A stretch of 64,000 nt of DNA from Elsinoe ampelina (taxonomy: Eukaryota). This document shows positions 345-52,210 of this stretch, in pieces. The position numbers and the translations under genes are program-made. Numbering within the stretch: position 1 is the stretch's first letter; the number at the start of each line of letters is the position of its first letter. Location of the stretch: assembly GCA_010093995.1 (NCBI GenBank), contig ML992513.1, positions 617,203 to 681,202 of the forward strand. Reading direction: 5' to 3'. The notes below the pieces were generated by a model, which searched no databases, was not told where the DNA came from, and saw only the letters and a program-made list of their open reading frames with translations.

Positions 345-1198
345 ATGGGAGACAGTACCGTCGTGCGACAAGAGATGAGTCCGTCAATGGACACGGTTGA
401 GGACAGCTATGCAGCTATGGTAAGCTCGACGTGTGTCACTTTTGTCTTTGCTCTAACTTTTGACCAGCCAGGCCCAATGCCGTTTGACCTTATTGGACTT
501 CCGACCGAAATCAGACACATGGTCTACGCCATCCATCAGCAATACATCGATGAGCACGACTTCCTTTATGTATCCATTACGTGGAACAAGGCCGACAGAG
601 TCCTGAAATTCTGCAGCGAATACGCTATCTACGTGCCGAACATGCTACCTCTGGTACTGACCTGCAAGACGATCAGCACTGAGATCCTGCCGTACTTCTA
701 CGCGACGCCTTGTTTCCAACTGCGTTTTGGCAACGAAATTGACAGGACTGTGGCCGATCTGCGGGCATCCTATCACTGCTTCAGATACATGCGCAACGTC
801 GAGATCCTTCTCGATCCGTTTTGTCGATTCAGCCGCGCCTTGAAACAGAGTCTGGAGCTGATCGAATGGGCCGAACAAATTGCGTACATGGAGATCAGCG
901 TCGGCAACTCTTGCTCATGGGAAAGGAGAGAGCATTGTGAGCTGCTCGAAGCGGGAGGGGGGGCAGAAGTCGAGAGGATGCTTGCGTATTGGGGCCAAAT
1001 CCGCTTCAAAGACAAGGTGGACTTGTGGTTTTGTCTGTTCGGATGGAAAGAATTGCGCGGTATGTGAGGTGTGAATCGACAACATTTGCAACGCTGACAG
1101 GAGCAGATGCAGAAGCCCAAAGACAGATCGCAATGAAGCTGGAGGGAAAGTGGAGAATGCTGCGTGAGCTATCTCGCCTTTTGCTAGAAAAAGTCTGA
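345..1198 (+). CDS. F-box-like (2EXR-type N-terminal motif) protein, paralogue 1
   Basis: Motif FDLIGLPTEIRHMVY followed by LVLTCKTISTEILPYFY. Predicted introns 420-467 (GTAAGC..CTAAC..CAG) and 1060-1100 (GTATGT..CTGAC AG, phase 1) join it to the exon GADAEAQRQIAM..EKV*. Confidence 0.75.
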
Positions 1199-1440
1199 AT
1201 TTCCAGACCATTTTCCAAACACTACCTTACGATGTCTTTCTGCGTCTGATGATGGTGTTGAAGTGTGAAAAGTCCATAGTTGCGTCCTTGTGCAGCGCAG
1301 CTGCCTATTTCGCGATACAAAGCCGTGACGCCAACTTCCTGCCCAACCTTTACACGCGTGCTTTCAAGAACAACTCGTCTCGTTGCAATCTTCGAGACTC
1401 AAGCGCACTACTCTATTCAAGACTCAGAGCGGAGAGCACC

Positions 1441-2553
1441 ATGGATAGATTCACTGTTCAGCATCATGCAGAAGAGGTCCGACGTGCAGCAACAATGCCG
1501 CAAGAAAATCAATCTGAGGATGGAGACATCCCTGGCTACATCAGTGTCGAAGACTCCGACACCAGTACTAATGATATGGTCGACGACGAGGCTGGAGACG
1601 AATATGATGCTCAGCACGAGAGCTCAGACGAAGCTGATGAAGAGCTGGGATGTAAAACCGCTCACGTCGCCAACCTCACCAGACACTTCACTGGCCCTTT
1701 CCGCTTGATGGATCTTCCGATCGAAATTCGCCGACTCATCTGGCGTGCCCTTCGTGGCTGTGGAGTCAAGAAGGATGCTCAAGATGACGGATCCGTCATG
1801 TACTACCATCCCGTTGCAGTCGATATCTTTGATGACGAGGACGACAAGACAATGCGCTGTGTCAAGGCACAAAGCCACACCTGGTCCTCGACTACACTCT
1901 TCCCCCTGCTCCTGGCGAGTCGCAAGGTTCACGACGAGGTCATCCCACTCCTTTATGGTAACGTCTTGTTCAACTTCAAATGGAGCGTCTGCGACAATTA
2001 CGAGACAGAGGAGTCTCTGCCATGTTTCCCTCACGGCTTGAGATGGGTCCTCATCGACTCTGCTGTCATTTGGTTGGACCCTTGCTTCGACATGATCCCA
2101 TACTTCAAAGAGATGATGAGCAAGCTACGTTGGGGTCGTAACCTTGGTTACATGAGCATCAGGTTCGACATGCAGCTTGCCGGACTCTATGGTATGGTGT
2201 TCGGAGTTGACATGGACGAAGATATGGAAGAGAACATGGATAAGCTGGCTGCAGAGTGGCCGAACATCGAAGCCAAATGCTTCGTGGACACAGACATCGA
2301 GGACCAGCATCATCCACCACTACTGGGTAGGATACCTGCAAAAGAAGACCGCATCCCTCCTGACACGATCACAGCTGCCGAGAAGAAGAGGCTGGAAGCA
2401 AAGGGCATGGCGGAGAAATTTCCCACTCCAGGTCGGTCAAATTGGATACTGCAAGGATCTTACTGACAAGTTGCAGCTCAGTTGTTTGGTTGGGGACCAT
2501 TGGGTGATGTGACGAAGTTAATCATGGTGGATGATCAGGGACGCGTCGCGTGA
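1441..2553 (+). CDS. F-box-like protein, paralogue 2 (acidic N-terminus)
   Basis: Motif FTGPFRLMDLPIEIRRLIW and LLLASRKVHDEVIPLLY. Predicted phase-1 introns 2327-2374 and 2432-2476. Start ATG uncertain (1249, 1441 or 1495). Confidence 0.75.
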
Positions 2554-2871
2554 GCTTCAAGAAGAATCGGTAGTGGGCGAAGCAATGGGATAGGGTGGAT
2601 TGCTTTCACGCGGGTTTGCTAATGTTTCCAATGGTTCATATTCGTATAATAGTGCAGTAGAATCATTTCGGTGGTGTTCAAATGCAATTTCTCATTGTCT
2701 TGCGCCCTGGTTTTCACATGACCGTGGCACGGATACACGATCCCAGGATTTTCGTTTCTTCACCTTTCATTTCTTCACCCACCTCAAATCAAGCTCATCA
2801 ATCCTACCACGACTGGCACGGCTCAAGAGACGGTTGAGATACCAGACAGAAAGTCGTCTGAAGTCAGTGTC

Positions 2872-3672
2872 ATGGTGAGTGAACGAATATACATGGTCGT
2901 GCTGGTGATCTCATGACGACTAATCCTATCAGACGACCACTTCTTCCCTCCGTTTGAGCTTCCTGGATCTACCAGCAGAGATTCGACGTCAGGTCTACCA
3001 CATGTGCATCGAGGTAGATATGCTTCTTGAGGAGCCTGCCGACAATTATTGGTACACCTTCGGCTGGACGATGGAAATACTCATCAACTGGTCCGCACAG
3101 CGACAAGTTTTCGACTTCGACGCCAACGGTGGTACACCTCCCTCGACACTTGCAGCGCTCATCCGTAGCTGCCACATGGTCCTTGAAGAGGCAAATCCGA
3201 TTCTATACCATGGGATCTTTGCCACTGTTACGGAGATGCAGCTGCTCGCGCCCTGGTCTGGTAACGTGGCTATGGCCGACGAGAGATTCAAATGGGTCCG
3301 CATGCTCACTATCCACCTCAATCCCTTCAATCTTTTCAGCGATAGATTCGAGACTGTCATGTCGGCTTTTTTCTGGGGCGAGTACCTTGAGGTATCGAGC
3401 CTTCAGATCGGCTACGAGTGCTCTTATATTGTCCACGGCATGAACCCTTGCGAGATAATGGAGATTGGGGGAGCAGTGGAGATTCGCAATCTCGCAAAGA
3501 TCTGGCTACAGATTCGATGCAAGCGGGAGGTCGATATTGCTCAATGCATATGGGAGGTTGAGCCTCTACATGGTAAGTGGTCTTGGGGAGGACCAGGAGT
3601 GTACTGACGATATTCATAGCCGCCGAAATGGAAAGATTGGAGGCCATGAAGAAGGAGAAGACGGCTCAGTAG
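2872..3672 (+). CDS. F-box-like protein, paralogue 3
   Basis: ATG at 2872 is directly followed by intron 2875-2932 (GTGAGT..CTAAT..CAG), in frame with SFLDLPAEIRRQVY. Phase-1 intron 3573-3619, then AAEMERLEAMKKEKTAQ*. Confidence 0.75.
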
Positions 3673-4023
3673 GTGCGAGCGTTTTTTTGTTTCATAGGAC
3701 GGATGGGCGTGGAACTACTGAAGCATGTTTTTGGACTATCCACAGGGTCATGGAGCTCCCCGTGAGCAGTCACCAGTCAATCAATAGATACTACTTTGAG
3801 GTGCAGATACAGAAAGGAGGAGGGGTTCGATCTTGCTGAAATGGACAATTTCGACAGTGTGACCCCAATTTCCGGAGTGGGATGGTACGCGACTGCGCAT
3901 GATTGTTCTCGCGTCTGCCTGATTGCTCTCCAAATCCAACACGTCCGACTCGTGTGAGAAATTTCTGCTTCACATCAACCTCGCAAACCCGCTCGCGCAT
4001 TTCCAGAGCCGCATCGCGGCTTT

Positions 4024-5152
4024 ATGAGCACCCTTAGCGTGCACCCAATGGACGAGGCAATCAACCAGCCTGCTTCTGCTTCAGCGAATGAGGATGAACC
4101 TGCCGCACTTAACCCCAGCGACCCACAACTCCCGGAGGACAATGATGATGGTGGTGGGAGTTCCTCCGAATGTCACTGCGTGAGCCGCAACGGAGGAGAT
4201 GGATGTCATTGTGAACATGACGATCGCTCCAGCCCCCAGCCGGGAGACAGTGATGCAGAATCCGATATCGACCACGCCTACTTAACTGCCAACTTTACTG
4301 GCCCGTTTCGCTTGATGGATCTTCCACCTGAGGTTCGACGGATGATTTGGCTAGAGCTACGTGGGGACACGAGATACTTTGGGGTCTTCAAATGCAAACG
4401 TATCGAGCTCGTTCACGAGAAGCCTACAAGCCCTGAAGGGCCGCGAATCCATAGACTTCTCAGCCCAGGTCCAGGCACACTACTGCCGGTACTGAAAACT
4501 TCTCGAACAATTCACGAAGAAGCCGGTCCTCTGATGTATCGCGACGTGCTCTGGTTCATCTTATGGAGCAACTTTGGTCACCATGTCAAACTGACCGGAC
4601 CTTGCCAGTTCATCGAGACGCAGCCCTGGCGATTCATCATGCGTATACACTGGTACGCGGACTCAGCGTTAACTGCTCATCGATCTTTCGAGAAATTTCT
4701 TGGCCTGGTGGATCACGGAAAGAACTTGATTGAAATCGAATTCGCCGTAAATCGCGAAGAGCTGCTTGGCTGTGAGCCAGAAAACTGGTTCGTCACAAAA
4801 GGCGTAGTCATGGAGAACATGGAGATGATCACCTACACAATCTCGAAGATTCAAGCAAAATGCTACGCTGAAGTCAGGTTCGGTGAGGAGCCTATGAAGA
4901 TCTGGGAGTGTCGGTCCAACATGTTCCTCTGTCTTAGATGTTACTGATATTGATAGTGGCCGAAGTCGAGCGTCTCCGCCGCCTAAACCTCATGCATCTA
5001 GTGCCAGAAGCTGGTATGACAAGCAAAGCCAGAAACTATAAATCACTGATATGTTTCCAGAACAAAATCTCGAGTGGGCTTTGACACTTACCGATGCTCT
5101 GGACTGGATAGAGACGATCGTGTTCGAAGGGGACTACGATGGGGACTTGTAG
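4024..5152 (+). CDS. F-box-like protein, paralogue 4
   Basis: Motif FTGPFRLMDLPPEVRRMIW (nearly identical to paralogue 2) and LKTSRTIHEEAGPLMY. Predicted phase-1 introns 4910-4956 and 5014-5060. Confidence 0.75.
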
Positions 5153-5444
5153 AAAGCGCAGAAAGGCTGCGGGAAGGCGTGTGAGGTTTGAGAAAGCAGA
5201 GAATACATTGCATGGTAGTTCAGCCATTCTGACGGCGGGTATCTTGCGGCCATGCATAGCGTTAAGGAAGGTATGAAGTTGAGCTTTTCGGACTTTCGGA
5301 AATTTTGCTGTGCGGTGTTTGGGTTTCCCACTTGGTCCGATTCAGCATTCAACACTCGGTCGGAAGATCAGAACATTGGAGATTGTTCAAAAATTCAGAT
5401 GCTCATACGACGATCTCAACGAAGACGACCTGACTTCAGCAAAG

Positions 5445-7592
5445 ATGTTCGTGGCCGCTGATGTCCGCCACCTCATCAACCTTTTCCCGCCGACAACCAA
5501 GCCCAAAGATCCATCTCCTGCAGATCAATCAACATCATTTGCATCCAGCGACACTAACAATACATTCTCAACGTCTGGTATCCCATCTTTCATCCCTTCT
5601 GCTACCCATCCCATCCTTTACCCTTTCCCTGTCTTGCAGCGGAAACTCCTCAACCACCTCTCCAGCCACGGCTCCATCTCGACCTCATCTCTTTCATCAC
5701 TGCTAGATGTACCAGATCCCACCACAATCATCAGATGGGCCGACCAACAACCCACTCTTTCCACGCCTGCCGCTCGAAAGCCTGACCTACCACCATGGCA
5801 GCAGAAAGTGGTGGCGATATGGTTCTTGTTTCAAGCTCGGTACAGGCCTACCAGGATCTCGGAAGCGGCTGAGTTCTTTGGTCTGGATGCTGAGATCGTG
5901 GAAGCCATCGTGAAGGCTCATGCGGAGACATGGCAGGGAGTGGAGGTGAAGGGGTTGTGGGTCACGAAGAGAATGTGGGAGGGGCGAAGGAGGGTGGTAA
6001 GCACGACTCTGGGAGATGCGGAGAAACATGGGGAGAAGAAGACGTTGGAAGGCTTGGAGGGCTGGGACGAGACCGTGGTGAGGTTGTTGGTGACGCTAGC
6101 GTTGGGAGAGGAAAGGGGTGGGCAGTGGGAGCTGCAAAGGGAGGGCTGCGGCTGGTCCTTCGTGCCCGCCACAGGGAACGGGCCAAGCGAAAAGACCGGA
6201 TTGGACGATCTGGTCAAAACGTACCGCCATGAGTTTCAGACAGTGGGCTGGGTCACGATTGCAGGTACGGGGGAACAGCGGGCGGTGATACTGGAGAGAC
6301 TGAGAGAGGATGGCGACTTGGACGATACGACTGAGCTGGAATCGGACTCTGCTACAGACTCTGCTACCCAGAATAAGGTTCCTCAGGACAGCGTCACTCT
6401 TGTCGCCTCGAGAAAGCTTAATGAAGCTAGCATGAAAGTGTTGGAGATCCTACCAGACGTCGCTCAAGCAATCTGGAGAGACACACAGGACAAGGACTTG
6501 TCTTTCAACACGAAGGTTCAATCACATATCACAACTAGTCTGCAAGACTCGAGTATCTCCAACACACTCCTGCCACTCATCGAGCTTGTTCTGGTCAGCT
6601 CAAATGCCAGCAAGCCCATCAAAGAAGCCTGGATGTCCCGCCTCGCCATACTCTCTTCGACCTCAAGCACCGCCTTCCTCAGCACTGTCCGAAACGATCT
6701 TCGACTCCCTCTCCATCTCTACACCGCCCCCATGGCCCTCTACTCCTCTGATCCCACCCTCGCAGAACATCAAACCTCCTTCCTCTATGACTTCCTCCGG
6801 TCCGACGTCCTCCCCGCCTTCTTCAAATCTATCTCCACCCTCGATTTACCACCACCAAAAGATCTTTCCAAAGAACTCTCCAAATTCAAGACCACCGCTT
6901 CCGAAGCCCGCAACCTCGACGCCCTTCTTTCCGTCTTCAAAAAGTTCTCCCGCAAAACCAAGCTCCCAGACGTGCACACCCCCCTGTCACGAGCCGGGAC
7001 CCGCTCTCTCTCCTCCCGTACAACCTCACGCACAGCATCACGAAGCCACAGTACCGCTCTCTCCTCACCAGCGTCACCCTCGACCGAGCAATCCACCACC
7101 ACCGCTCCTGCTGCAGAAGCCACCACACCCCCATCTCTGGACGAGCAGGCAGGCAAGACCGACCTCCTCCTCGCCCGCGACACCATCCTATCTCAAGACA
7201 TGAAAACTCTCCTCAAAGCCAAGCGCCCAAGCGACGTCCTCCAGCAAGCCACCTGGATCCTTCTCGCTTCCGTCGTGGAGGAGCCAATGGTGTTCATCTC
7301 CGGCGGGAGAGACGCGGGGAGGATGGTGAAGCTTTTTCAGAGGGTTGCGTCTGGCGTTGAGGATGAGGGAGGAGGAGAGGTAAAGGATAGAGAAGTGGAT
7401 GAGGAAGGGGATGAGGGAGAGGCTATGCAGCCAACGAGGGAGGGATATGGTGAGCGGATGGACTGGGTTGGTGCAGGGAGGAGGTTGGAGGGGTTTAGGG
7501 GGAAGGTGAAGGGGGGGAAGGAAGAGGGGAGGGAGGTGCAGGGGGTTAGGGAGCTGGCGGGGAGGGGGTGGGAGGGGAGGAGGGTGCGGTGA
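5445..7592 (+). CDS. Uncharacterised ~715 aa protein; probable remote E3 UFM1-protein ligase 1 (UFL1)-like homologue
   Basis: Long uninterrupted ORF with ATG at 5445. Several segments resemble remembered UFL1 blocks in the right order (HGSISTSSLSSLLDV; EFQTVGWVTI; LHLYTAPMALYSSDPTLAEHQTSFL; PSDVLQQATWILLA..FISGGRDAGRMVKLF). The CDS is confident, the family call is moderate. Confidence 0.55.
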   Translation: MFVAADVRHLINLFPPTTKPKDPSPADQSTSFASSDTNNTFSTSGIPSFIPSATHPILYPFPVLQRKLLNHLSSHGSISTSSLSSLLDVPDPTTIIRWADQQPTLSTPAARKPDLPPWQQKVVAIWFLFQARYRPTRISEAAEFFGLDAEIVEAIVKAHAETWQGVEVKGLWVTKRMWEGRRRVVSTTLGDAEKHGEKKTLEGLEGWDETVVRLLVTLALGEERGGQWELQREGCGWSFVPATGNGPSEKTGLDDLVKTYRHEFQTVGWVTIAGTGEQRAVILERLREDGDLDDTTELESDSATDSATQNKVPQDSVTLVASRKLNEASMKVLEILPDVAQAIWRDTQDKDLSFNTKVQSHITTSLQDSSISNTLLPLIELVLVSSNASKPIKEAWMSRLAILSSTSSTAFLSTVRNDLRLPLHLYTAPMALYSSDPTLAEHQTSFLYDFLRSDVLPAFFKSISTLDLPPPKDLSKELSKFKTTASEARNLDALLSVFKKFSRKTKLPDVHTPLSRAGTRSLSSRTTSRTASRSHSTALSSPASPSTEQSTTTAPAAEATTPPSLDEQAGKTDLLLARDTILSQDMKTLLKAKRPSDVLQQATWILLASVVEEPMVFISGGRDAGRMVKLFQRVASGVEDEGGGEVKDREVDEEGDEGEAMQPTREGYGERMDWVGAGRRLEGFRGKVKGGKEEGREVQGVRELAGRGWEGRRVR

Positions 7593-7803
7593 TATTGTGT
7601 TCGAGAAGTGGGAGTGAGATGGGAAAGATGATGTACTGATGCAGTTGATGGAGGCAAGACTACCAATGGCCGTCGGCACGTCGACACTACAAAGCGTGTC
7701 GAGCATGTCACACGGGAAAATGGACAGGCAGATCGTGACGGTGTGATCTTCTCATTCGTGCATCTATTCCCCTCCCCCTGATTTTTTGCCCAGCTACCAC
7801 CAT

Positions 7804-9710
7804 CTAAGGAGCCAACCTCCCCGGATCCCTCGGGAATAAACTCCCGAGCCTCACGTTCGGCAACCCCAACCACAACATGACGATCCTCTCCAACCCAATC
7901 CCACCCCCAGCGTGAGGCGGACACCCATACCTGAACCCATCGACATAATCCTTCAACCCCTGGCCCTCCGGGTCCACCGGGCTAACATGCTCCTTCATCC
8001 TCTTGACCAGGAAATTCGCATCGTGGATCCTCTGCGCGCCGGACATGATCTCCTGCCCGCGCATGAAGAAGTCGTAGCTGTTGCTGTAGCCGCCGTTGGG
8101 GTCGGGGGAGTCTTTGGCGAAAGCGGGGGAGTCGGGGGCGGGCATGGTGTAGAATGGGCGGATGGCGAGCGGGTAGCGGTCGAGGATGTAGAAGTCTGTG
8201 CCGTATTTTTCGAGGACGAGGCGGCCGAGGCGTTTTTCGTCGGGGGTGCTGGGGGGGAAAGTCAGTCAGGGGGGACGGGTTGGGGGATGGAGGGGATAGG
8301 GGGACGGACCTGAGATCGTCAAAGTCGCCGACTTGGATGCCGTCGTCGCGAAGCATTTTGACGCCTTCGGAGAAGGGGAGGCGGATGGTTTTGCCTACTT
8401 CGGGGAGCTTGAATTCTTCGACGTGGTAGATGCTGCGGATGAGGTCGGTCTCCTTGCCGTAGCGGTCTTTGAGGCCGTTGAGGATGAAGAGCATGAGGCC
8501 TTCGATGAACTCGACGACTTCGTGGTAGTGTTCCTGAAACTCCATCTCGAGATCCAGACCGGTGAACTCGGTCAAGTGGCGGGCTGTGTTGCTGTTCTCT
8601 GCCCGGAAGACGGGACCGATTTCGTAGACCCTCTCCATACGAGCGGCGATCAGCATCTGCTTGTAGAGTTGAGGACTTTGTGCGAGGTAGGCTTTGCGAT
8701 CGAAGTACTTGACCTCGAAGACGTTGGCACCTCCTTCTGATGCACTGCCCAACAGCTTTGGTGTCTGCACGCCCACGAAGCCCTTGCCGTCGAGGTATTC
8801 TCTGAAGAGTGCTGTTACACCGTGCTTGATCTTGAATATTGCCAAATTGTGTTTCGCCCTCAAATCGATGATCCTGTTGTTCAATCTCGTGTTGAGCATG
8901 ACCAAAGGTCTCGCGCCCTCCTCTTCCTTCTCCTCTTCACCATCGGCAGGAAGTGGCCTCTCGGCGTCCGCTACCTGCATGGGTAGTTGCGCTTCGGCTC
9001 TGCACTCGACAAACAGCCTCTTGACATGGATCTCCAGGTGTCCGACGGTCGCGCTCTTGACCTCCTCTTTCGGCGCCTTGACTACACCATGCACAATTAC
9101 CACGCTCTCGGTAGGTATTGATCCGCAGAACTTGACCATCTGTCTGCTGAGCGACGGGCTCTCTGCTACGACAGCTTGTACATTGTTCCCACTCTGACCA
9201 AGCAAGAGGAAGGAGAGCTTTGCGGACTGATTGCGGGCGTTCTCAACAATAGCGCGGAAGACGACTTCTGGTCCGCCGGGCTCGGTTAGGGAAGAGGCAT
9301 CGGCGTACTTTTTGGCGAGTTCGGAGAGAGTAACGCGAGTGGTAGACTCTTTGGGAGCTTCCGGTAGGACGGGGAGATCACCATAGTCTGCTTTGGAGAC
9401 GTCGTTGGCATCTTTGGCGGCTCGGGCTGCGTCTTCTTCGGCTTTTCGTTTGGCTGCCTTCTCAGCCTGGAAAGTATGTAAGTAAGCTTCATGGAAGATT
9501 ACCAACGGTGGTAGAGGATGGCCAAATTCGAAGAGTGTAGACGGTCGAGCATTGAGGTGGTGAGTATACCTTTTCTTTCTCTTTTTGCATCTTCTTCAGA
9601 GCCGACTTGGAGGGGCCCTTCTCGCCCTCGGCGGGAGCAGAACCATCCTCCTTGGGTCGCTCTGGTAGAGCTTCAGCAGACTGACCTGCGGGCGCAGATT
9701 GGTCGGCCAT
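7804..9710 (-). CDS. DPS1: Cytosolic aspartyl-tRNA synthetase
   Basis: Class IIb motifs [74 protein letters not shown]. Introns 9467-9569 and 8249-8309. Confidence 0.97.
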
Positions 9711-10009
9711 GTTGTTGTGGGTGGGTTGAGAAAGAGGGTGTAATGTTTGGCGGGGTACTTTGGATATTTGAAGTGGGATGCTGTGCGTCACAGGAATTGC
9801 GCATGAGTCGAAAGTCAATTCCGAGCACCGATCATCACCGCCATCGACAAGAAAGGTCACCGCGACGTGATTGGAACAAGTTTGAGGACCAATACAGTAG
9901 TATATACAGTGTTTGATTACATGACAGTCCCGCGCCTGGCTATGCGATATTCCCAGGCCAGCTTATGCCTTTAAATGCACGACCTCCTCCTTTCCAGGGT
10001 CGACTTCAT

Positions 10010-16991: not shown

Positions 16992-17778
16992 TCACGAATC
17001 CTCTGGCTCTTTGTACATCTTCGCCAGACGTGCGTCTTCCCACTCTGCACAGCCAAGTCAGTCAGTTGTCTCGTTGCCGTTGGTCCCACTCACCATTCAG
17101 TTCCTTCTCCAGGCGCTTCTTGGTCCTGCCACTGATTTTGAAATCGATCCTTCTCGCCAGCTTAAGCTTGCTCCATTCACGAATCAATGCCTGCCAACGA
17201 TCTGGGAAAGCCTTCTTGTCTTCCTCCGCCAGCTTGTCTCCCTTGACGAGCTCGATCGAAAGATTGTCCATACCTTCGCAGAAACCGGATGCCGTCATCA
17301 TCAGCTGAAACTTGTCGAACCAAGCCGGATCTTTGGCATTGAGCTTGATGGTCAGGTTCTGAACCATGCCGAACAACATCCTCGGCTGTGTGTAGAAGAA
17401 GTTCTCGAAAGGTGCGGTATGAATGGTGAACTTCATGTCCTGGTATAGATACGGCAGAACTTCGACATAGAGCTCTTTGGACACCCTCGCCAGTGACCAC
17501 AAGGTCTGATTGCACCTTCCTCGGATGAAGCAGAAGGTCTTCGTGAAGTGATTACGGAGGTACTCGACGGAGTGCGTAACGTCGGAGTTGTTTGCCGCGA
17601 CGAGCTTGTACACCATATGCCTGATCTCTGGAGGGAATCGCAGAAATCGGAAGCCGTTCGTGCGTTGGGCGGCATGTCGAAGCTCACGGATCTCTGTTGC
17701 CTTGAGGGGTGTCCGGGTGCGTAGACGAAGAGGAGGCTTCTTGGTCAGCGAGGGAGAGCCTTCGGGAGGAGACGCCAT
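16992..17778 (-). CDS. F-box-like protein, paralogue 5
   Basis: FRFLRFPPEIRHMVY and LARVSKELYVEVLPYLY. Phase-1 intron 17045-17093, then EWEDARLAKMYKEPEDS*. Confidence 0.75.
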
Positions 17779-18453: not shown

Positions 18454-19378
18454 CTAGGTATCTCCAGAAGCAAGCGCCGCCAAACGTTCATCCTCATTCC
18501 CTATTCTGTGTCAGCCTGTAATTTCTTGTTCCCCCGAACTACATACTTTCGAGCTCCCTGATCATCTGCTTTCGCCCTCCGGCGTACTGGATACGATTCG
18601 GCAACTGCACCGATCTGAGGGCCAGCATGAAGCGGTCCCACTCCGCCCAGAAAAGCGCCCTGATATGGGAATTCCAGGAAATTTGTCGTTTGAAGGTCAA
18701 CTTGAGTTGCCTGCGGCTGTGTTGGTGCTGCATCCTGTGGATGATGTCGATCGTGTGATCGCACCAGCCGTCGTGGTCGATGAAGATGGTGAGCCTGAGA
18801 TCCTGCACCATCTCGAAGTCAATACCTGGCATGGTAAATGAAACACCGGATGTAGCGTCCGGAATAAGTTTTGCTAAGAAATGATCCCCAGCCACAGCGT
18901 AGCGGTTGCCGAAGGTCTGCATGGTGATGTAGAACGTCACACCGCGGTAGAGATACTGCTCGCACATCTCCTGTCGAATCGCCTTGCTGGTCCTGGAGAG
19001 ACTGCACAGATGCTGATTGGCCCTACCTTGACGGAAGTCGTACTTGTTGCGATCGCGGTCGTGAATGTGGGTGTAGATGACGCGTTTCACGACATGCTCG
19101 TCGGCATCTGCAGCCAAGTCATCGTAGACCATGAACCGCAGTTCGATCGGCAGGTCGAGGAAGCGGAACCCGAGAGATGAATCCTCATCCGGTAGGATTG
19201 AACCTCTGCTGAACACATCTGTATCTGACATTCGAGGCCTGGTATGCTCGCCCACTACAGTCTGCATTGTCAGCTGTGACGCAATCGCCGCCTCCTCTTG
19301 CGACTCGCTTCCTGTGGACGGAGATGTAGAAGAGGGAGAAGAGTGAGCGCTGGAGTGAACAGACGCTGAAGATCCCAT
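18454..19378 (-). CDS. F-box-like protein, paralogue 6
   Basis: FRFLDLPIELRFMVY and LSRTSKAIRQEMCEQYLY. Shares F..GR.NQ.L.SL.R.SK with paralogue 5. Phase-1 intron 18501-18546, then RNEDERLAALASGDT*. Confidence 0.75.
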
Positions 19379-30697: not shown

Positions 30698-32470
30698 GTT
30701 CGCATGTGTACGAGGAATCTATACGTCGTGAATTTTCCAGGCAGCAGACCGGCGGCTGGATCTGAGATGCGCCCAGTATTAGCGCCGTGTTTTGGAGAGA
30801 GCAGGCCTGAAGGGGTTGATAGGTCCAAGGTCGTCCGATGCCCGAAGCCTTGGTGAGTCAGCTTCTCCCCGCATGGTCAGAGCTCGAGGCTGGCTCTCGA
30901 GCACTTCATCACACAAACATCATCACATCTATGCTCGACTCGTACCCATTGGAATGCATATGACCGTCAAGCGCTACGCAGGAAGGCTACATGCTGTCGC
31001 CTCTCCATGAAACCGCGCTAGAAATTTGCTCCGATAGAGCATCGAAGAATGATACAGACTCCTTCGCTAGATCATGCGGTTTGCCTTCGCCGCCTGCTCG
31101 ACCTATAGACCGTCCACCGAAGCCGGCTCAAGGATCAAAGCCCGAGAGCCAATGGATAACAAGGCATTTTTTTTGATCGAGTCCCTCATCTCAGTCCCCA
31201 ATGATCTGAGTTCAAAGAGACACAACACCGCTGATTCGAAGCGTTGACATGATTTTATTGCAAGAGAAGACCAGCCGTGGCTTAATCTCGCCAACAGCAA
31301 CAAGCATGACAAATCGGTGGGGTGATAGAATTAAGGTGGGCTCGGGTCTTGCGGTATTGCTACATAAATTCGCTTTTCGTCAGCGACAAGCAGTAAAACC
31401 CGCACATTCATAGGTTGACTCGATCAAACGCAATTGCTTCGCCATATGATATGCAACCTTAATCTCACATCAAAGCCGATAAACAGCACATCTTCATCAT
31501 ATCCCGTACACTACCCAATGGCCCATAAACTCTAGCGGAGCGATCACGACCCTCACTTCTCTCGGAAGCGCCCTGCCCTCACTCCTCTCAGCGGACTTCA
31601 TGATCGAGCTCCGCTTCTACATCTCCGCCCGTTTCGGGCCGCCGACGGGTCTCCTCCCCGACCTCTCTGCCCTGGATTGGCTCCAGGTTCAGCGCCTCAG
31701 GCTCATCACGAGCGCTACCTTCCCTCGTTTCGCGCTCCTGGAGACGGCAATGCAGCGCATGCGATGGGGGAGCAACTCGTGAGGCTGGAAGTGTGGGCGG
31801 AGCCTGGGGGAAGGGCGGTGGATAACCGTGGGCAGATTAGGGGGCGAGGTATGATGGATGTGGTGGGGTCGGCTGGGCGGGAATGGGCGGAGCTGAGGGC
31901 GGTGTGGCGCAGGGTGCGGTGTCGTGGGCGGGTCGTGTTGGGGTTGACTGGGGGGGAGCCGATGCGATCGGGTGGGGGGAGGGATGGGCCGAGGGGTGGG
32001 TCGAACAGGCTGCGAGACCTGGAGGTCAGGCGGAGGCGGAGGCTGAGGGGTTGAGTGGTGGTGGAGGCGGTGGGAGCAAGGGGGCTCGTTGATGGGGCAG
32101 ACCTGGTGGCGACGGCGGTGGGATGGGAAGGGGTCGTTGAGGGGGTTGGTGGTGTGGGTGGATGCTGGCGTTGAGATGGGGTAGATGACCTGGTTCCTGC
32201 AGGCATTAGTGTTGGCGAACATCATCTGGTAGTACCCGGCGAACAGACATGACAAATAGCAATACACGATGTAATCTTCCTCCTTTGACAAACGAGTCCC
32301 ACATTGGTATGGTGAGACGACGTACATGAGAGAGGATACACGACAGACATAGTCACAGGTGGGGGGACACAGGTAAAGATTCGTGGAATTGTACATGTAA
32401 AAACCATTCAAAGTATGTCAGCAGGGTATAATAGGTCCACAACCAAAGATCAAACGCTTGCGCCACCCAA

Positions 32471-43323: not shown

Positions 43324-43776
43324 ATGTCCGTCCCAATCAACATCACCAAAAAGGCCCCCTCCTCGTCGTCCCCGTCTTCCTCCGGCACCCCGGCCAAACC
43401 AGCCTACTTCTCCAACGGCCGCGCCCTCTCCTCCCCTCCCCTCTCCGCCCGCGCCAAATCCCTCCTCAGCACAATCTACTGCTTCATCGGGCTGTACCTG
43501 ACCACTTTGTTCTCGCTGGACAGCACGGCGGCGGCGCAGGGGAGTCCGTTTGCCAAGAGCAGGGGTGGGGGGACACAGGGGAGGGGGAGTTTTCCGAAGC
43601 CGACGTTCTGGGGAGGGAGTGGGGGTGGAGGGGGAGGGGATGGGAGGGGCCCGGGAGGAGGGGGGAGCGGAGGTGGGAATGGGAAGGGCTGGTTTGGTGG
43701 GGCTGGAGGGGGTGGGGGGAAGAAATTGGGGACGGTGGATGGGGTGAGGGGGCCGGAGTGTGGGAGTTGTCAGTAG
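43324..43776 (+). CDS. Selenoprotein K/SelG-like ER membrane protein (Cys version)
   Basis: AYFSNGRAL, one TM-like helix (TIYCFIGLYLTTLFSL), Gly-rich linker, KKLGTVDGVRGP and a terminal CGSCQ*, which is the SelK/SelG architecture. Confidence 0.75.
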   Translation: MSVPINITKKAPSSSSPSSSGTPAKPAYFSNGRALSSPPLSARAKSLLSTIYCFIGLYLTTLFSLDSTAAAQGSPFAKSRGGGTQGRGSFPKPTFWGGSGGGGGGDGRGPGGGGSGGGNGKGWFGGAGGGGGKKLGTVDGVRGPECGSCQ

Positions 43777-45333
43777 GATGGGATTGATAACATTGGGGAT
43801 GCAATGATACTGGGATTGCGGTTAATCAAAGTCTTCTGAGCCATTGGACTCGTTCTGCTTGTGAGGTGCCGGCGTTCTTGTGGGATGTCGTCTTCTTGCG
43901 TGTTATTAGGTCAAATAAGTCGCCGCCAGCGTCTCTTGGGACGTTCGCCAGGGACTAGCATGATTGCCCATGATCGCCTTGAGGGCTTTTCACAAAGATA
44001 CTGAACAGGCCACGATCGTCGTAGCGTTACGTTAATTGTTGACGCCTCTGCCGGTCGTTCCATTACAAGCCTTGCAACCATGCTGTGTCTTCTGCTTGAC
44101 TCGATATTTGAGACACCCATGTCTGGACAGCTCGTAAGGGCATGGTAACATCAACTATTCCATAACAATGACGATCATGGCAAGTACCGCGAGCTGAAAA
44201 TAGAGTATAGACGGGATATGAGAAGGAGCTGGGCTGAGAATAACAATTTCCCTACCCGGCTACCTGGCGTCGCAGTAGGCCCAAGTGTTTCGACCATCCC
44301 GTCTCTCGGCATCTCCAGACGAACGATCGACGATTCAATAGGGACCTTCCGGTGCCTGAGCGCTGGGTGAAGGAGAGATGTTGTGACATTTCAGCCTTGT
44401 CGGTTAAAGTTTGCGGGAGGGAGTTGCCGATCAACTCCATCCTCTTCTTCAACCTCACTCCATTGAACCTTGTTCACTGGTCATGTTTCTGATATTGCTG
44501 ACAGGCCATGCGGCTTGGTCGTATGGGCAGCGCATGTGTCGTGACATGTGCTTGACACCCAACGGTAAGTGATCGCTTGAAGGCGACCTGGTAAGCAGAC
44601 ATGCGGAGATGGCAATGCCAATATTTCCTTGAAGACTTCTTGTGGGCTCTGATCGACTTGCTTTCCTTTATTTGCAGCCATCTCCATATTGAGCGGTATT
44701 CGGCCCGGTCTTGCATGCTAGAGAGACGGCAGAGTGCCCGTACGAACCGTCGAGGCTCAATGTCAGACCAACCACCAACAACCTGCTCTCAACGTCATGG
44801 GCGGGATAGTGACAGGTTTGTGCCACATCCTGGAGCTCCTACATGCAGAATACAGGGGAGTCGGTATGGTCTGGTCGGAAACTTGTCATGGCCTTGAACT
44901 CTAAGGAATGTATGTTTCGTATAGGTACTTGTACATGAAAGTTCTCCGTGGAGGCACGCCTGTCGACCTTGGCCGCGGGAGGGCAAACCGCGCCTTACAC
45001 TTCTGTCCGTTCTAGACGTGGAAGGACTTTGGCCACCTGTATAAGCTAGGCGAACCAGTCTCGCCTTCTCATCTATCTTCGGCGACTTTACGGCACACCT
45101 GTATCAGCAGCCATTTGGCCTCTCCTACACAAGCGCCTAATACATCTACACACTCGCTTGGCAGAAGAAGGTATACGTTACCTTGGGACGTTATCTAGTA
45201 CGATGGGAAGGTATAAGACAGAGCACACTGTTCGTGAAATATCAGTCCATCATCAACAACCACAACATCCAACATTCACCAGTAAGAACCAACCAGCACC
45301 AAAACAACTACATCCAGTCTCCAAAACGACAAC

Positions 45334-45795
45334 ATGAAGACCACTACCACCACCCTCATCGCCTCCCTCCTCGCTTTCGCCTCCGCCGGACCATTCAGCC
45401 AACAAAAGCCAGGCACCACCACAGACCCCGGCCTCGTCGGCAAAGTCGGCCAGCCCAGCAACTTCCTTGGCCCATCCCCCAACAAGGCCGGCGAAGCCGG
45501 AGGCGAAGGTGTGGGACAGGCCACAAGCTTCGGCGGCGGTTCCGGACCCGGCATTGGACCCACGTTCGGACAGCAAGCGGTCCCGGTCGCCGCAGCCGGA
45601 TTGCAAGTCGGTGCTGGGAAGTCGGTGAGTGAACCGGAAGGAGTCTGATGATGGAAGGCTACTGACGCGGTGCAGTTCGAGCATTCAGTGGCGAATGCGA
45701 ATGCGAATGGACAATTCAAACATGATCCTATCCCGCCGGGGACGAATACCTACACCGAAACCCCTGAGTTTTCGGGAAGTGGGACGAAGCCATAG
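45334..45795 (+). CDS. Small secreted Gly/Pro-rich protein
   Basis: Signal peptide MKTTTTTLIASLLAFASA. Intron 45625-45675 (GTGAGT..CTGAC..CAG) continues to FEHSVANANANG..GTKP*. TATA box (TATAAG) at ~45213 and a CA-rich 5' UTR. Confidence 0.75.
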
Positions 45796-47566: not shown

Positions 47567-47936
47567 TCCGGCAGACTCTGATCAAGTCAAATATCGGTTG
47601 TTTCCCCAAGCTCTTAGCAAGTCAACGTGATCCTTGTTCAGCTTCAGTCGGCGCCTACGGTATCGCGGAGGCGTGGGGACATGCCGGAAAGCCTGATTCG
47701 TATGACCAATGGGAGGAGAAAATTCGTGAGCCGGAGAATTGCTGCACTTGATGAGGGTGTCTACATCGGTAGCGCCAAGTTGACGCTAGGTGAATGGAAT
47801 ACAAATCATTATAAGTAGAGAGTCTTATCAAGGGACGTGTGATTCATAAAGAGCGCCGTAATGATGACCGATCACCCTCTATATACATATTCGGCGCGAG
47901 AACGAGAACGAAGAACGAGCGAGTTTCTAGCAAGAA

Positions 47937-47948
47937 TTAGGGTTAGGG
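47937..47948 (+). promoter_or_regulatory. Interstitial telomeric dimer TTAGGGTTAGGG (possible telobox site)
   Basis: Two exact TTAGGG units in the divergent intergenic region, close to a TATATA at ~47879. Confidence 0.3.
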
Positions 47949-48012
47949 TCACATGTCAATGCCAAGCGCGCCGGGGTCGCGTGTTCACAAGTAGCTTGCC
48001 TTCTGGCTTGCG

Positions 48013-48104
48013 CATCGACATATCACTCTCTATGCGCCTCCTTCTCGTGGCTTGTTCATCGACATATCACTCCCCATTCATTCAACGCGCCTCCTTCTCG
48101 TGGC
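48013..48104. repeat. Imperfect direct duplication upstream of an ORF
   Basis: CATCGACATATCACTC at 48013 and 48057; GCGCCTCCTTCTCGTGGC at 48034 and 48087. Confidence 0.85.
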
Positions 48105-49813: not shown

Positions 49814-49929
49814 ATGACACGACGTAGATGCCAGCATTTGCATGGCACATGAGCTTTCGCTGTCATCTGCGATTTTCGAATAGTGTCACTCTCAATACAT
49901 GTCGCTTCACTGAAAGTGTACGATCCCTC

Positions 49930-50829
49930 CTACAACCCCACCGCCGCCTTCTTCTCCCTCCTCTCCTGCTCCGCCATCCCCTCCCAGATCCTCCCAAACC
50001 TGCTCATCTCCGCCCCTCTCATCTCCACCTCCCACTCCCTCACCTCCCAATCACCCTCCCATATCACGGGCCACCTAACCTTCACCCCCTCCCACAACCT
50101 CACCAACGCATCCTTCGTCCTCCCCCTCTCCACCAGCCCCTCCTTGACCACCACCCTCGTCCTCGCACTCTCCGATCTCCATCCCCCCTGATAGCTCTCC
50201 ACCACCATCCCCTCCAACTTCTCCCCCCAGTCAATCTGCGGCATCAACCACCACAACAGATCAACCACGTCCACGCCACCGTGGTGCTCGATCCTCAACT
50301 TCCTCAACGAACCCCAATGCGGCGCCGGGAGGAAATGCATCGTCACGTCCTCAGCCCTGATGTGAGGGAGGAGCATGCGCATCTCCACTTCCGCGAGCGA
50401 GGTGGTGTAGGGCATGATTTCGTGGCGGAGTTGGCGGCATGAGGCGGCGAGGGAGATGGTGCCGAGGAGGAAAGGGCAGGTGGAGGAGGGGAGCCAGAGG
50501 TACTTGGTGGTTGAAGGCGTGGGGTGGACGGCGGTGAGGGTGTAGGTGAGTGTGGGGCGGGTGGGGCGGGAGAGGATGGCGTCCCAGAGGATGGAGTAGA
50601 TGATGTTGCGGATGTCGCCGGGGAGGGAGGTGAAGCTGGTCGTGGGTGTAGATGTGGGAGATGGTGGCAAGGAGACCTGCGGAGAGGGAGCTGGAAGAGG
50701 TCAGCAAAGCGAAGCCCGGTGCAGAGACTAGATCGCACTTCTGTGTGGACGCTTGAGAAGAAGCTCGTCGCCAGGTGAAGCAACTTGCTCTGGTGGAGCC
50801 GCCATGGTCTTGCGCTTGCGGATCTGCAT
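49930..50829 (-). CDS. F-box-like protein, paralogue 7
   Basis: FTSLPGDIRNIIY, LAASCRQLRHEIMPY, IDWGEKLEGM. Predicted 5' intron at about 50691-50750. Start at 50829 or 50805. Confidence 0.7.
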
Positions 50830-51164
50830 TGTAAGCCTGTCTTGTTTCAAGTCGCTAAAAAGATGAATCGTGGAGAACCAACTGATAGATCCATGGTAAT
50901 TATACTCAAGAAGTTTGCTATTGTCAAGTGGTGATGTGAAGATGTGGAAACGAAGACAATAGCATCTTTATTGTTGAGGTGTTCCTGTGAATACAAAAGC
51001 AAAGACAATAGTCATCGCAAAGTTCGGAATAGAGCAAACCTTGACAATCCAAAGTCCACAGTGCCACCGTTAGAGTCTTGTGCTTGGCCAATAATATACT
51101 CCAAGCGTATCCCTTCTCTGCTTCTGCCTATGGAACGCTCTGTACCTCGTCTGACCTGGCCATG

Positions 51165-52210
51165 TCACTGCTCTTGATCAACCGAGGTCTTCGCATCGCT
51201 CTTGAGCTTCGACAAGCGCTGTTCATCAGCAGCTACCCTCGTCAGTGCTTCAGACTTTCGGAGACAAGGTCCTCGTTCGACGTACCTAGTAATCGCCTCG
51301 AATGGTGAATGGTTCCAGTCGTATGACCGAAATCGATAGGTCGTTTGCAGCGGATGTCGGCAATGAGGCCAAGAAGCGTGCCGAATTCTTTCGCTGGGTC
51401 AGTTCCAGCTGTGTCTACTGTTTCCTCCTCAGCTTCGATCGTGTAAACGCTGTTTAGGCGCAGCTGATGCAGGTGCGTCCCATTATCGATGAGGGGTAGC
51501 AGATCAGCCAAGATGCGATTGAGTCCGGACGCAGTATACGCTGATAGTTCGAGCTTCTTAACAAGCGGCCATGCGACGGTCGCCGCTGAAGGCAGCCTGA
51601 CATGATCATCGCCGTGGGACTCCCAGGTCTCGATCGAGAAGTCGATTTTGGCGTATAGCATTGGCGGCAGCTCTTCACGCACCTTTCGGCATGTTGCGGC
51701 CAACTTCCCAGCGTCGCCCCAAACGACCACTTCGCCATCGCCGTGCCTATCGCGAACCAATAACGCTGCATCCTCATAATCAGGCAGGAAGACAGCCGTG
51801 TCCCAGAAGGGCTGATCCGTGTTCCCAGACTCGATGTATTTTTGTTCTGCTTTGCCTCGACCATCCTTAAGTATGATGTCGTAAATGAGCAGCCTGATCT
51901 CGGGCAGCAGCGTCAACAAGCTGGGCTGGACCTTGCTTGTCGATGCATTATGACCCTCCTCTTCCTCTTGGCCTGCTTGCATCCTTGCCCCTTCTGTCGA
52001 CGACTCCCCCGCCTTACCCTTCCCTCTCTTCTTCGACGGCCTCCCCTTTGGCTTCTTCCCTATCTCCGCCGCAATCGCTGCCCGTGCGTCTTTAACGTCC
52101 TGCTCCCTGCTACCGTTGAGTGGTGGTCCGGGCTGCCAGTTCTCAGTCAGGCGTTTCTTGGTGATTACGACTTCGACGCCATCATCTGTGGCTTTACGCC
52201 TTGGCGGCAT
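51165..52210 (-). CDS. F-box-like protein, paralogue 8
   Basis: SLLTLLPEIRLLIY, LAATCRKVREELPPMLY, LIDNGTHL, DIRCKRPIDF. Basic NLS-like N-terminus. Phase-1 intron 51233-51285, then AADEQRLSKL..EQ*. Confidence 0.75.

What the first reader, a model, noticed from the sequence alone, without database searches (positions are those of the whole stretch)
345..52210. Eight highly diverged F-box-like paralogues in three clusters share one intron and a C-terminal signature
Seen: genes at 345, 1441, 2872, 4024 (+) and 17778, 19378, 50829, 52210 (-) all carry F/L-x-x-LP-x-EIR-x-x-I/V-Y/W, then L-x-x-[SC]-[RK]-x-[IV]-x-x-E-x-x-P-x-LY. Most also show a W/H/N-G-x-x-L segment and a W-x-x-I-x-x-K-x-x-[VI]-D segment. 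Seven have a 41-53 nt phase-1 intron just before a helix that in most reads E-x-x-RL (1060, 2327, 3573, 4910, 17093, 18546, 51285), although the intervening sequence is barely alignable. Established: F-box motifs bind Skp1 in SCF ligases. Inference: this is one lineage-expanded, fast-diversifying family of substrate adaptors (about a quarter of the genes in the window), the pattern expected of a ubiquitin-based defence or non-self surveillance repertoire.
Basis: partly seen in the sequence, partly recalled or inferred. Interest (0 to 1): 0.72.

Follow-up and report, generated by a model that had tools for sequence, protein, structure and literature searches.

The report
Eight old F-box-like fungal paralogues
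Eight small, very dissimilar sister genes of a fungal plant pathogen belong to a large, unstudied fungal protein family that looks like ubiquitin-ligase adaptors, and they form an old, conserved gene array, not a newly expanded defence set.

Summary
Eight spliced genes in three head-to-tail clusters are 15-29% identical. A profile of any seven finds the eighth at E 4e-11 to 2e-27. Seven carry a 46-53 nt phase-1 intron in the same alignment column, before an A-E-x-x-R-L helix. Spliced contigs of one run confirm the g2 and g3 introns.

They are diverged members of the Ascomycota family that Pfam files as DUF7730/2EXR: 4726 cluster representatives match at E<=1e-3, and 98 of 120 scanned carry DUF7730.

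Two confident AlphaFold models share one topology: helix, hairpin, two helices, about four strand-helix units, then a C-terminal helix. The best full-length fold matches are F-box-LRR proteins, but at modest Z (5.8-6.4). The best solved sequence match is the Skp1-binding F-box of Ctf13 (E 0.037). Skp1 binding could not be tested.

"Lineage-expanded defence repertoire" is not supported. The four subfamilies predate the genus. Counterparts lie in the same neighbourhood in E. batatas, E. fawcettii and Sphaceloma murrayae, and probably in two more distant fungi. The whole fold is conserved between close species.

This is a new member of a known, uncharacterised kind.

The parts
345..1198 (+). g1 (subfamily A), 268 aa in my model. 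Exons 345-1059 and 1107-1198. C-terminal phase-1 intron 1060-1106 (47 nt; acceptors at 1100 or 1103 are also in frame).
   Evidence: A database protein (P0003, 252 aa) uses the same C-terminal splice but has a 16-residue N-terminal gap relative to my model. No joint was listed for this intron.
1441..2466 (+). g2 (subfamily B), 325 aa. Exons 1441-2326 and 2375-2466. Intron 2327-2374 (48 nt, phase 1).
   Evidence: A spliced contig of run X1 skips exactly these 48 bases with GT..AG ends.
2872..3672 (+). g3 (subfamily A), 231 aa. Exons 2872-2874 (ATG only), 2933-3572 and 3620-3672. Introns 2875-2932 (58 nt) and 3573-3619 (47 nt, phase 1).
   Evidence: A spliced contig of run X1 skips 3573-3619 with GT..AG ends. 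The first intron is inferred from sequence only.
4024..5084 (+). g4 (subfamily B), 337 aa in my model. Exons 4024-4909 and 4957-5084. Intron 4910-4956 (47 nt, phase 1, weak donor GTCGGT). The 3' end is uncertain.
   Evidence: A minus-strand spliced contig (joint 5035->5092, CT..AC) overlaps the modelled tail.
16992..17778 (-). g5 (subfamily C), 245 aa. Exons 17778-17094 and 17044-16992. Intron 17093-17045 (49 nt, phase 1).
   Evidence: My spliced model is letter for letter the database protein P0001. AlphaFold model: pLDDT 85.1, pTM 0.75.
18454..19378 (-). g6 (subfamily C), 292 aa. Exons 19378-18547 and 18500-18454. Intron 18546-18501 (46 nt, phase 1).
   Evidence: E. batatas counterpart P0005 is 77% identical.
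49930..50829 (-). g7 (subfamily D), 283 aa. Exons 50829-50739 and 50690-49930. N-terminal intron 50738-50691 (48 nt, phase 1). No C-terminal intron, but the helix is kept.
   Evidence: No Pfam hit. Found by the profile of the other seven at E 3.7e-11. AlphaFold model of the exon-2 product: pLDDT 82.6, pTM 0.77, with the same order of helices and strands as g5. A database model (P0008, 161 aa) covers only the C-terminal half.
51165..52210 (-). g8 (subfamily D), 330 aa. Exons 52210-51286 and 51232-51165. Intron 51285-51233 (53 nt, phase 1).
   Evidence: My spliced model is identical to the database protein P0004.
31483..32051 (+). Possible decayed ninth copy. Two collinear pieces lie in different frames. 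No F-box part was found.
   Evidence: ORF 31483-31779 matches family profile positions 103-157 (E 0.024). ORF 31536-32051 matches positions 155-213 (E 6.5e-4). Both were scored against 1550 six-frame ORFs. The signal is weak.

Best explanation
The eight genes are real, spliced, ancient paralogues. They fall into four subfamilies (g1/g3, g2/g4, g5/g6, g7/g8) of the Ascomycota protein family that Pfam lists as DUF7730/2EXR.

Each protein has four parts:
- a disordered N-terminal tail;
- an F-box-like three-helix unit. The unit is split by a variable insert of about 30-75 residues that forms a beta-hairpin;
- a short LRR-like stack of about four strand-helix units;
- a C-terminal helix (A-E-x-x-R-L) encoded after a conserved phase-1 intron.

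The most likely mechanism is inferred, not shown. The split F-box docks on Skp1, so each protein would serve as a small FBXL-type substrate receptor of an SCF ubiquitin ligase. The strand-helix stack and the C-terminal helix would form the target-binding face.

The array is an old, syntenically conserved set of receptors. It evolves much faster than housekeeping genes but under constraint over the whole fold. It is not a recent lineage-specific expansion.
For: Family and genes:
- Leave-one-out profiles recover each member at E 1.7e-27 to 3.7e-11.
- Seven introns share one phase and one alignment column.
- The g2 and g3 introns are skipped in spliced contigs.
- My g5 and g8 models equal database proteins letter for letter.

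Family assignment:
- 7 of 8 give weak DUF7730 hits, with 1 of 8 above the cutoff. 5 of 8 give weak 2EXR hits.
- A profile of the eight finds 4726 representatives at E<=1e-3.
- Of 120 proteins scanned, 98 carry DUF7730, 61 carry 2EXR and 13 carry F-box-like_2.
- The nearest Atlas clusters are DUF7730/2EXR, or are auto-named 'F-box domain-containing'. All are mainly Ascomycota.

Fold:
- The g5 model has pLDDT 85.1 and pTM 0.75. The g7 model has 82.6 and 0.77. Both show the same order of helices and strands.
- Both models align over their whole length to the same stretch (35-227) of 4i6j_B: Z 6.4 with 152 residues aligned, and Z 5.8 with 153. Both also align to 5hyw_A (Z 5.3 and 5.2).
- Isolated F-boxes bound to Skp1 align to g5 residues 40-116, skipping the hairpin: 5k35_A at rmsd 2.0 over 46 residues, and 5ibk_E at Z 5.4.
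- The best solved sequence match is residues 5-49 of Ctf13 (E 0.037). Ctf13 is an F-box-LRR protein with an expanded domain round the F-box, and it binds Skp1 (PMC5771398, passages read).

Age and constraint: as set out in the full report.
Against: - No canonical F-box model (PF00646) hits any of the eight. F-box-like (PF12937) hits 0 of 8 and 1 of 120 relatives.
- Foldseek against the PDB gave nothing at E<=1e-3; its best rows are Rab GTPases and CD38.
- All VIA Z-scores are below 8, a range the tool says may reflect only a common arrangement. For g7 the top rows are helical-repeat and axonemal proteins tied with FBXL3.
- The Ctf13 match (E 0.037) is not significant on its own. With the larger profile, all solved-structure hits have E>=0.017.
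- The insert between helix 1 and helices 2-3 might block Skp1.
- An arginine occupies a position that, as I recall, is hydrophobic in the canonical F-box.
- No experiment on any DUF7730/2EXR protein turned up in the papers searched.
- No domain fusion among the 120 relatives hints at a function.
Confidence: 0.55

Rival explanations
1. The N-terminal helices are only a structural cap of a small LRR-like protein-binding module. On this reading DUF7730/2EXR proteins do not bind Skp1 and have no link to ubiquitin. They would be stand-alone binders or scaffolds with another, unknown role.
For: - Canonical F-box models do not match.
- Foldseek finds no F-box.
- Structural Z-scores are modest and tied with unrelated helical and LRR proteins.
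- The models fold as one compact unit (pTM 0.75-0.77).
- A long insert splits the would-be F-box.
- The Pfam models are named as a domain of unknown function and as 2EXR, not as F-box models.
Against: - The helices align to F-boxes solved in complex with Skp1 at rmsd 2.0-3.8 over 46-47 residues.
- The same residues give F-box-like_2 hits in 13 of 120 relatives, with a best E of 3.2e-08.
- One Atlas cluster carries 2EXR in 93% of members and F-box-like_2 in 76%.
- Ctf13 carries nearly the same motif and binds Skp1.
- The F-box helices are the best-conserved part between orthologues, at 85-86%.
Confidence: 0.25
2. The proteins dock on Skp1 but do not act in a cullin ligase. They would be non-degradative adaptors or assembly factors, as Ctf13 is in the CBF3 kinetochore complex.
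For: The closest solved sequence match is Ctf13, which uses Skp1 for complex assembly (PMC5771398, passages). A review title in the listing, 'F-box proteins: more than baits for the SCF?' (PMC1712225), was seen as a listing only.
Against: The match is marginal and covers only about 45 residues. Nothing here separates cullin-dependent from cullin-independent use. A family of thousands is more easily explained by substrate receptors than by dedicated assembly factors (inference).
Confidence: 0.1
3. One reading: a lineage-expanded, fast-diversifying battery of SCF adaptors that serves ubiquitin-based defence or non-self surveillance.
For: - Eight of roughly 30 genes in the window belong to the family (my estimate).
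- Paralogues are 15-29% identical.
- Counterparts in E. fawcettii are only 24-35% identical, against 46% for a neighbour gene.
- Terminal branches in the tree have a median length of 1.05 changes per column.
Against: - The duplications predate the genus, and the array is syntenic across Elsinoaceae and probably beyond.
- Against E. batatas the family (58-88%) evolves at about the rate of an unannotated neighbour (72%). The body has no gaps and is 74% identical.
- The genes sit among housekeeping genes: a class II tRNA synthetase, lipoyl synthase, ERG4/ERG24 and an ANTH + I/LWEQ protein. None of the 24 other long ORFs scanned matched a HET, NACHT or NLR domain.
- No recent copies lie in the window.
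Confidence: 0.1

Closest known systems
Pfam DUF7730 (PF24864) and 2EXR (PF20150), uncharacterised families of Ascomycota
   Same: The eight give their best, though weak, Pfam hits to these two models over the N-terminal 80-100 residues. Of 120 proteins scanned (g5's own protein plus its 119 best-ranked relatives), 98 carry DUF7730 and 61 carry 2EXR. The nearest Atlas clusters are the same families.
   Different: Only g5's exon-1 translation reaches the DUF7730 cutoff (28.0 against 27). None reaches the 2EXR cutoff, and g7 hits nothing. The eight and their nearest relatives form a syntenic subgroup with a conserved C-terminal helix and intron. I saw no description of either in the only paper found that mentions 2EXR (PMC9621593, one passage read). 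That paper says only that two ExR motifs might be functionally important and that AlphaFold predicted the region as mostly unstructured.
FBXL-type F-box proteins (F-box plus leucine-rich repeats: FBXL3, Skp2, rice D3, TIR1)
   Same: Both share an N-terminal three-helix unit followed by a parallel strand-helix stack. Both models align end to end to 4i6j_B residues 35-227 and to 5hyw_A. Sub-threshold profile hits to SKP2 and TIR1 were also seen. The naming of 4i6j_B as FBXL3 and 5hyw_A as D3 rests on entry titles and my recollection.
   Different: These proteins are much smaller (231-337 aa, about four repeats). Their F-box is split by a hairpin insert of about 30-75 residues. An arginine follows E-I where, as I recall, the canonical F-box has a hydrophobic residue. 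A C-terminal helix follows the stack. Canonical F-box Pfam models do not match. Skp1 binding is untested.
Ctf13, the F-box-LRR subunit of the yeast CBF3 kinetochore complex
   Same: Ctf13 is the best solved sequence match. Its residues 5-49 align to the family's F-R-F-L-D-L-P-x-E-I-R-x-x-I-Y helix. The paper describes it as an F-box-LRR protein with an expanded domain round the F-box that binds Skp1 (PMC5771398, passages).
   Different: E is only 0.037, and the match does not extend beyond the first helix. Ctf13 is 478 aa, has seven LRRs with a helical insertion, and has a kinetochore role. There is no evidence that the two are close relatives.
Large, fast-evolving F-box gene families of plants and nematodes
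   Same: Both involve many tandemly arranged, highly diverged F-box-type genes. This comparison is recalled from general knowledge. Plant F-box surveys appeared only in the listing.
   Different: Here the array is old and syntenic, and the whole fold is constrained between close species. No recent tandem expansion is visible in the window.

Membership tests
Pfam DUF7730 (PF24864) | Score at or above the curated whole-protein cutoff (27 bits) | tested here: inconclusive
   g5's exon-1 translation scores 28.0, above the cutoff. The other six hits score 11.7-25.9, and g7 has none. The full-length g5 protein P0001 scores 25.9. So 1 of 8 passes, and only in one form.
Pfam DUF7730 (PF24864) | Homology to family members, shown by a profile search | tested here: met
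   The profile of the eight finds 4726 representatives at E<=1e-3. Of 120 proteins scanned (P0001 plus the 119 best-ranked of the 150 listed; the other 31 were left out because of the residue limit), 98 match DUF7730 at E<=1e-3.
Pfam 2EXR (PF20150) | Score at or above the curated cutoff (24.8 bits) | tested here: not met
   5 of 8 hit at 15.2-19.1 bits, and none reaches 24.8. Among relatives, 61 of 120 match at E<=1e-3.
F-box proteins | Match to a curated F-box sequence model (PF00646, PF12937, PF13013) | tested here: not met
   only g3 touches F-box-like_2 (16.6 bits, cutoff 21.6, E 0.008). PF00646 and PF12937 do not appear for any of the eight. Among the 120 scanned proteins, 13 match F-box-like_2 (best E 3.2e-08) and 1 matches F-box-like.
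F-box proteins | Three-helix F-box fold at the N-terminus of the folded part | tested here: inconclusive
   The g5 model aligns to 5ibk_E (Z 5.4, rmsd 3.8, 47 residues), 5k35_A (Z 4.9, rmsd 2.0, 46), 9xzj_F (Z 4.5, rmsd 2.4, 41) and 9cb3_A (Z 4.5, rmsd 2.5, 41), all starting at model residues 40-43. The g7 model aligns to 5ibk_E at Z 4.9. All Z-scores are below 8, and Foldseek found no F-box.
F-box proteins | Binding to Skp1 | not testable with these tools
   No Skp1 sequence was available. The window encodes none among the ORFs scanned, and no whole genome is held. So no complex prediction was run.
FBXL subclass (F-box plus LRR) | Leucine-rich-repeat solenoid after the F-box | tested here: inconclusive
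   Both models show four to five strand-helix units. They align to 4i6j_B 35-227 (Z 6.4 and 5.8) and 5hyw_A (Z 5.3 and 5.2), and to LRR proteins including RanGAP, CARMIL, tropomodulin and LANP (Z 4.7-5.7). No Pfam LRR model matched. Sub-threshold profile hits to LRR proteins all had E>=0.017.

The most novel reading that the evidence does not exclude
DUF7730/2EXR, with thousands of sequence clusters across Ascomycota, would be a large and so far unstudied class of Skp1-docking substrate receptors. Its F-box would be split by a hairpin insert. The array in this window would then be an order-wide conserved battery of such receptors. Their binding faces would track fast-changing targets such as non-self, viral or mobile-element proteins. 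If so, published F-box catalogues of filamentous fungi miss most of the repertoire.
Probability: 0.15. Interest if true: 0.6.

Novelty: new member of a known kind. Interest (0 to 1): 0.3.

Why it matters
DUF7730/2EXR is a very large family of filamentous ascomycetes. My searches found no experimental study of it. '2EXR' and 'DUF7730' gave one relevant passage, and the three Pfam accessions gave no fungal paper.

This work turns a domain of unknown function into a concrete hypothesis: a small F-box-LRR receptor with a split F-box. The obvious test is Skp1 binding and its loss on mutating the L-P / E-I-R helix.

It also shows that what looks like a local expansion is an ancient array kept in one genomic neighbourhood across a fungal family. 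That is a caution against reading divergence between paralogues as recent diversification.

If Skp1 binding holds, counts of SCF receptors in plant-pathogenic and other ascomycetes would need to be revised upward.

Tried and rejected
- **Whole genome.** None is held, so genome-wide copy number could not be counted.
- **Foldseek against the PDB.** No match at E<=1e-3.
- **RNA support for the other introns.** No joint was listed for the introns of g1, g4, g5 and g6. g7 and g8 lay outside the 20-kb stretch that was laid. No listed run is on record as RNA; X1 is labelled RNA only as a guess. Runs X2-X4 gave nothing over the family genes.
- **Shared upstream motif.** The commonest 6-, 7- and 8-mers in the eight 300-bp upstream regions are no more frequent than in random windows (fraction of nulls at or above the observed value: 0.665, 0.23, 0.89).
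- **Bacterial promoter/terminator scan.** Irrelevant for a fungus, and it found nothing.
- **Earlier scan notes.** Two look-ups gave nothing on this family.
- **Paper search on F-box expansion in filamentous fungi.** Only the listing was seen. No listed title or abstract start mentioned this family.
- **dN/dS.** No nucleotide sequence of orthologues was reachable, so only protein identity by region was computed.
- **Intron position in distant relatives.** Not checked, for the same reason.
- **Domain fusions as a clue to function.** Among 120 scanned proteins, the only other hits were Forkhead (2, weak), CTD1 (1) and F-box-like (1).
- **Supplements.** None of any paper was opened.

Full report
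**1. What is in the sequence**

The window is fungal. It has short introns with GT donors, CTGAC branch sites and YAG acceptors. A database search returned the g5 product letter for letter as a hypothetical protein of Elsinoe ampelina.

The seven stated donor positions are exact. The C-terminal introns are:

| Gene | Length | Note |
|---|---|---|
| g1 | 47 nt | acceptors at 41 and 44 nt are also in frame |
| g2 | 48 nt | |
| g3 | 47 nt | |
| g4 | 47 nt | weak GTCGGT donor |
| g5 | 49 nt | |
| g6 | 46 nt | |
| g8 | 53 nt | |

All are phase 1. In the alignment of the spliced products they fall in one column, directly before a helix reading [AEN]-[EAD]-x-x-R-[LQ].

g7 has no intron there but keeps the helix. 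It has an N-terminal 48-nt phase-1 intron instead. g3 starts with an ATG followed at once by a 58-nt intron.

My spliced models of g5 and g8 are identical to database proteins P0001 and P0004.

One sequencing run (X1) is labelled RNA only as a guess, but its contigs skip introns in several neighbouring genes. It has contigs that skip exactly 2327-2374 and 3573-3619 with GT..AG ends. So the g2 and g3 introns are observed.

**2. Is it one family, beyond chance?**

Pairwise identity is 15-29%. Direct pairwise searches link only g1-g3, g2-g4 and g5-g6 strongly. g7 links to nothing.

A profile built from any seven recovers the eighth at E 1.7e-27 to 3.7e-11, with g7 the weakest. The best ORFs outside the eight main ORFs score E 2e-05 to 3e-03, and five of those eight are short exons of family genes.

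Strictly they fit 3 of 8, 1 of 8, 5 of 8 and 3 of 8 genes. Loosened forms of the first two fit all eight and no other of the 945 six-frame ORFs, but I loosened them after seeing the family. One arginine and one glutamate are invariant.

No further intact copy is in the window. A weak two-piece, frame-shifted signal at 31483-32051 (+) may be a decayed ninth copy.

**3. What family it is**

Pfam gives weak hits to DUF7730 in 7 of 8 (one above the cutoff), to 2EXR in 5 of 8 (none above), and to F-box-like_2 in g3 only.

A profile of the eight, run against 1.84 billion representatives, finds 4726 at E<=1e-3, 104 at E<=1e-10 and 6 at E<=1e-30.

I scanned 120 proteins: g5's own protein plus the 119 best-ranked hits. 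The other 31 listed hits were left out because of a size limit. Of the 120, 98 carry DUF7730, 61 carry 2EXR, 13 carry F-box-like_2 and 1 carries F-box-like.

The protein atlas places g5 next to clusters of the same families, mainly from Ascomycota. One cluster carries 2EXR in 93% of members and F-box-like_2 in 76%.

In the papers searched, 2EXR appears once as a protein family. [quoted passage not shown] DUF7730 appears in no paper. The three Pfam accessions gave no fungal study (listing only).

**4. Fold**

AlphaFold2, run with a 66-row alignment, gave a confident g5 model (pLDDT 85.1, pTM 0.75). Its elements in order are:
- helix 50-63;
- hairpin 70-87;
- helices 91-97 and 101-112;
- strands and helices alternating to residue 216;
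- a C-terminal helix 220-238.

The most doubtful member, g7, gave pLDDT 82.6 and pTM 0.77 with the same order of elements. So the fold is shared beyond the N-terminal motif.

Foldseek found nothing at E<=1e-3. An exhaustive alignment against 48,161 solved chains gave only modest scores, all with Z<8. The tool warns that this range can reflect a common arrangement.

The content of the lists is nonetheless coherent:
- For g5, 9 of the 50 rows are F-box proteins. 4i6j_B is first (Z 6.4, 152 residues, model 44-243 against chain 35-227).
- Isolated F-boxes solved with Skp1 align from model residue 40-43 across the hairpin. 5k35_A gives rmsd 2.0 over 46 residues.
- For g7, 4i6j_B aligns over the same chain range (Z 5.8, 153 residues), 5hyw_A scores Z 5.2, and many LRR proteins follow. 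The top rows are tied with unrelated helical-repeat proteins.

Which protein each chain is comes from entry titles and my recollection.

At sequence level, the profile's only near-hits in the PDB are Ctf13 residues 5-49 (E 0.037 and 0.043). A larger but messier profile gave only sub-threshold hits (E>=0.017), mostly LRR and F-box-LRR proteins: TIR1, SKP2, Ctf13, Roq1 and NAIP. Ctf13 is described as an F-box-LRR protein with an expanded domain round the F-box that binds Skp1 (PMC5771398, passages).

The W/H/N-G-x-x-L and W-x-x-I-x-x-K-x-x-VD segments belong to the repeat stack. The post-intron helix is the last element of the model, and that it caps the stack is inferred. The comparison with the canonical F-box consensus is from memory.

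**5. History**

A tree was built from the eight plus 18 near relatives that I picked from the BLAST lists; all other hits were left out. It shows four subfamilies: g1/g3, g2/g4, g5/g6 and g7/g8. Five of the eight pair with an E. batatas protein on short branches. Several pair with E. fawcettii proteins on long ones. Median terminal branch length is 1.05 changes per column.

Closest E. batatas counterparts:

| Gene | Identity | Note |
|---|---|---|
| g5 | 88% | |
| g2 | 80% | 99-residue fragment only |
| g3 | 79% | |
| g6 | 77% | |
| g4 | 58% | |

For g1, g7 and g8 the cluster representative is the window's own protein, so their E. batatas counterparts could not be seen.

In E. fawcettii, four consecutive locus tags (045330 to 045360) are family members. 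Tag 045310 is the orthologue (46% identical) of the window's gene at 5283-7589. Tags 045250 and 045090 are g6-like and g8-like. The spacing resembles that in the window.

Other fungi show similar arrangements:
- Sphaceloma murrayae has three members within twelve locus tags, on the contig that also holds its lipoyl synthase.
- Myriangium duriaei has four hits with nearby accession numbers on one contig.
- Dothideomycetidae sp. 11243 has three members on the contig that also holds its lipoyl synthase.

Synteny beyond E. fawcettii rests on locus tags and contig lengths only, not on aligned DNA.

For rate controls, lipoyl synthase is 98% identical in E. batatas and 88-89% in E. australis and S. 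murrayae. The unannotated neighbour is 72% identical in E. batatas and 46% in E. fawcettii.

Pooled over four orthologue pairs, identity by region is:

| Region | Identity |
|---|---|
| F-box helix 1 | 85% |
| Helices 2-3 | 86% |
| Insert | 75% |
| Repeat body | 74% (1 gap in 493 positions) |
| N-terminal tail | 47% |

So the genes evolve much faster than an enzyme, at about the pace of an orphan-like neighbour, and under constraint over the whole fold.

**6. Verdict**

The F-box-like reading is reasonable but rests on modest scores, and Skp1 binding is untested. I could not run a complex prediction because no Skp1 sequence was at hand.

The claims of a lineage-specific expansion and a defence repertoire are not supported. 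The array is old, syntenic and embedded among housekeeping genes.

I file this as new members of a known, uncharacterised family, with a sharper structural hypothesis than the databases give.

Noticed in passing
window 31483-32051 (+): Two collinear weak matches to the family profile lie in two different frames: positions 103-157 at E 0.024, then 155-213 at E 6.5e-4. No F-box part was found upstream. This may be a decayed ninth copy, lying between the second and third clusters.
   Followed up: partly
window 5035-5092 (-), overlapping the modelled 3' end of g4: A contig of run X1 skips 56 bases with CT..AC ends. So a minus-strand spliced transcript overlaps the tail of my g4 model. Either g4 ends earlier than modelled or the two genes overlap tail to tail.
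   Followed up: no
window 345-5084 (+): The first cluster alternates subfamilies (A, B, A, B) with 243-405 bp between coding regions. This suggests duplication of a two-gene unit. The E. fawcettii counterpart run reads B, A, A, A by the tree, so the alternation is not conserved.
   Followed up: partly
window 49930-50829 (-), g7: The database protein for this gene (P0008, 161 aa) covers only the C-terminal half. The open frame and a confident structure model include the F-box-like part, so the public gene model is probably truncated.
   Followed up: partly
window 29072-30718 (-), 55094-59077 (-), 59411-62848 (-): One ORF carries a strong DUF7924 match (E 1.8e-67). Two very long ORFs (1328 and 1146 aa) have no Pfam match at E<=1e-5.
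   Followed up: no
window 7744-9741, runs X2-X4: Contigs of three runs with the same species label differ from the window at many third-codon-like positions in the tRNA-synthetase gene, with 11-31 differences per piece. They probably come from a different strain or a close species.
   Followed up: no
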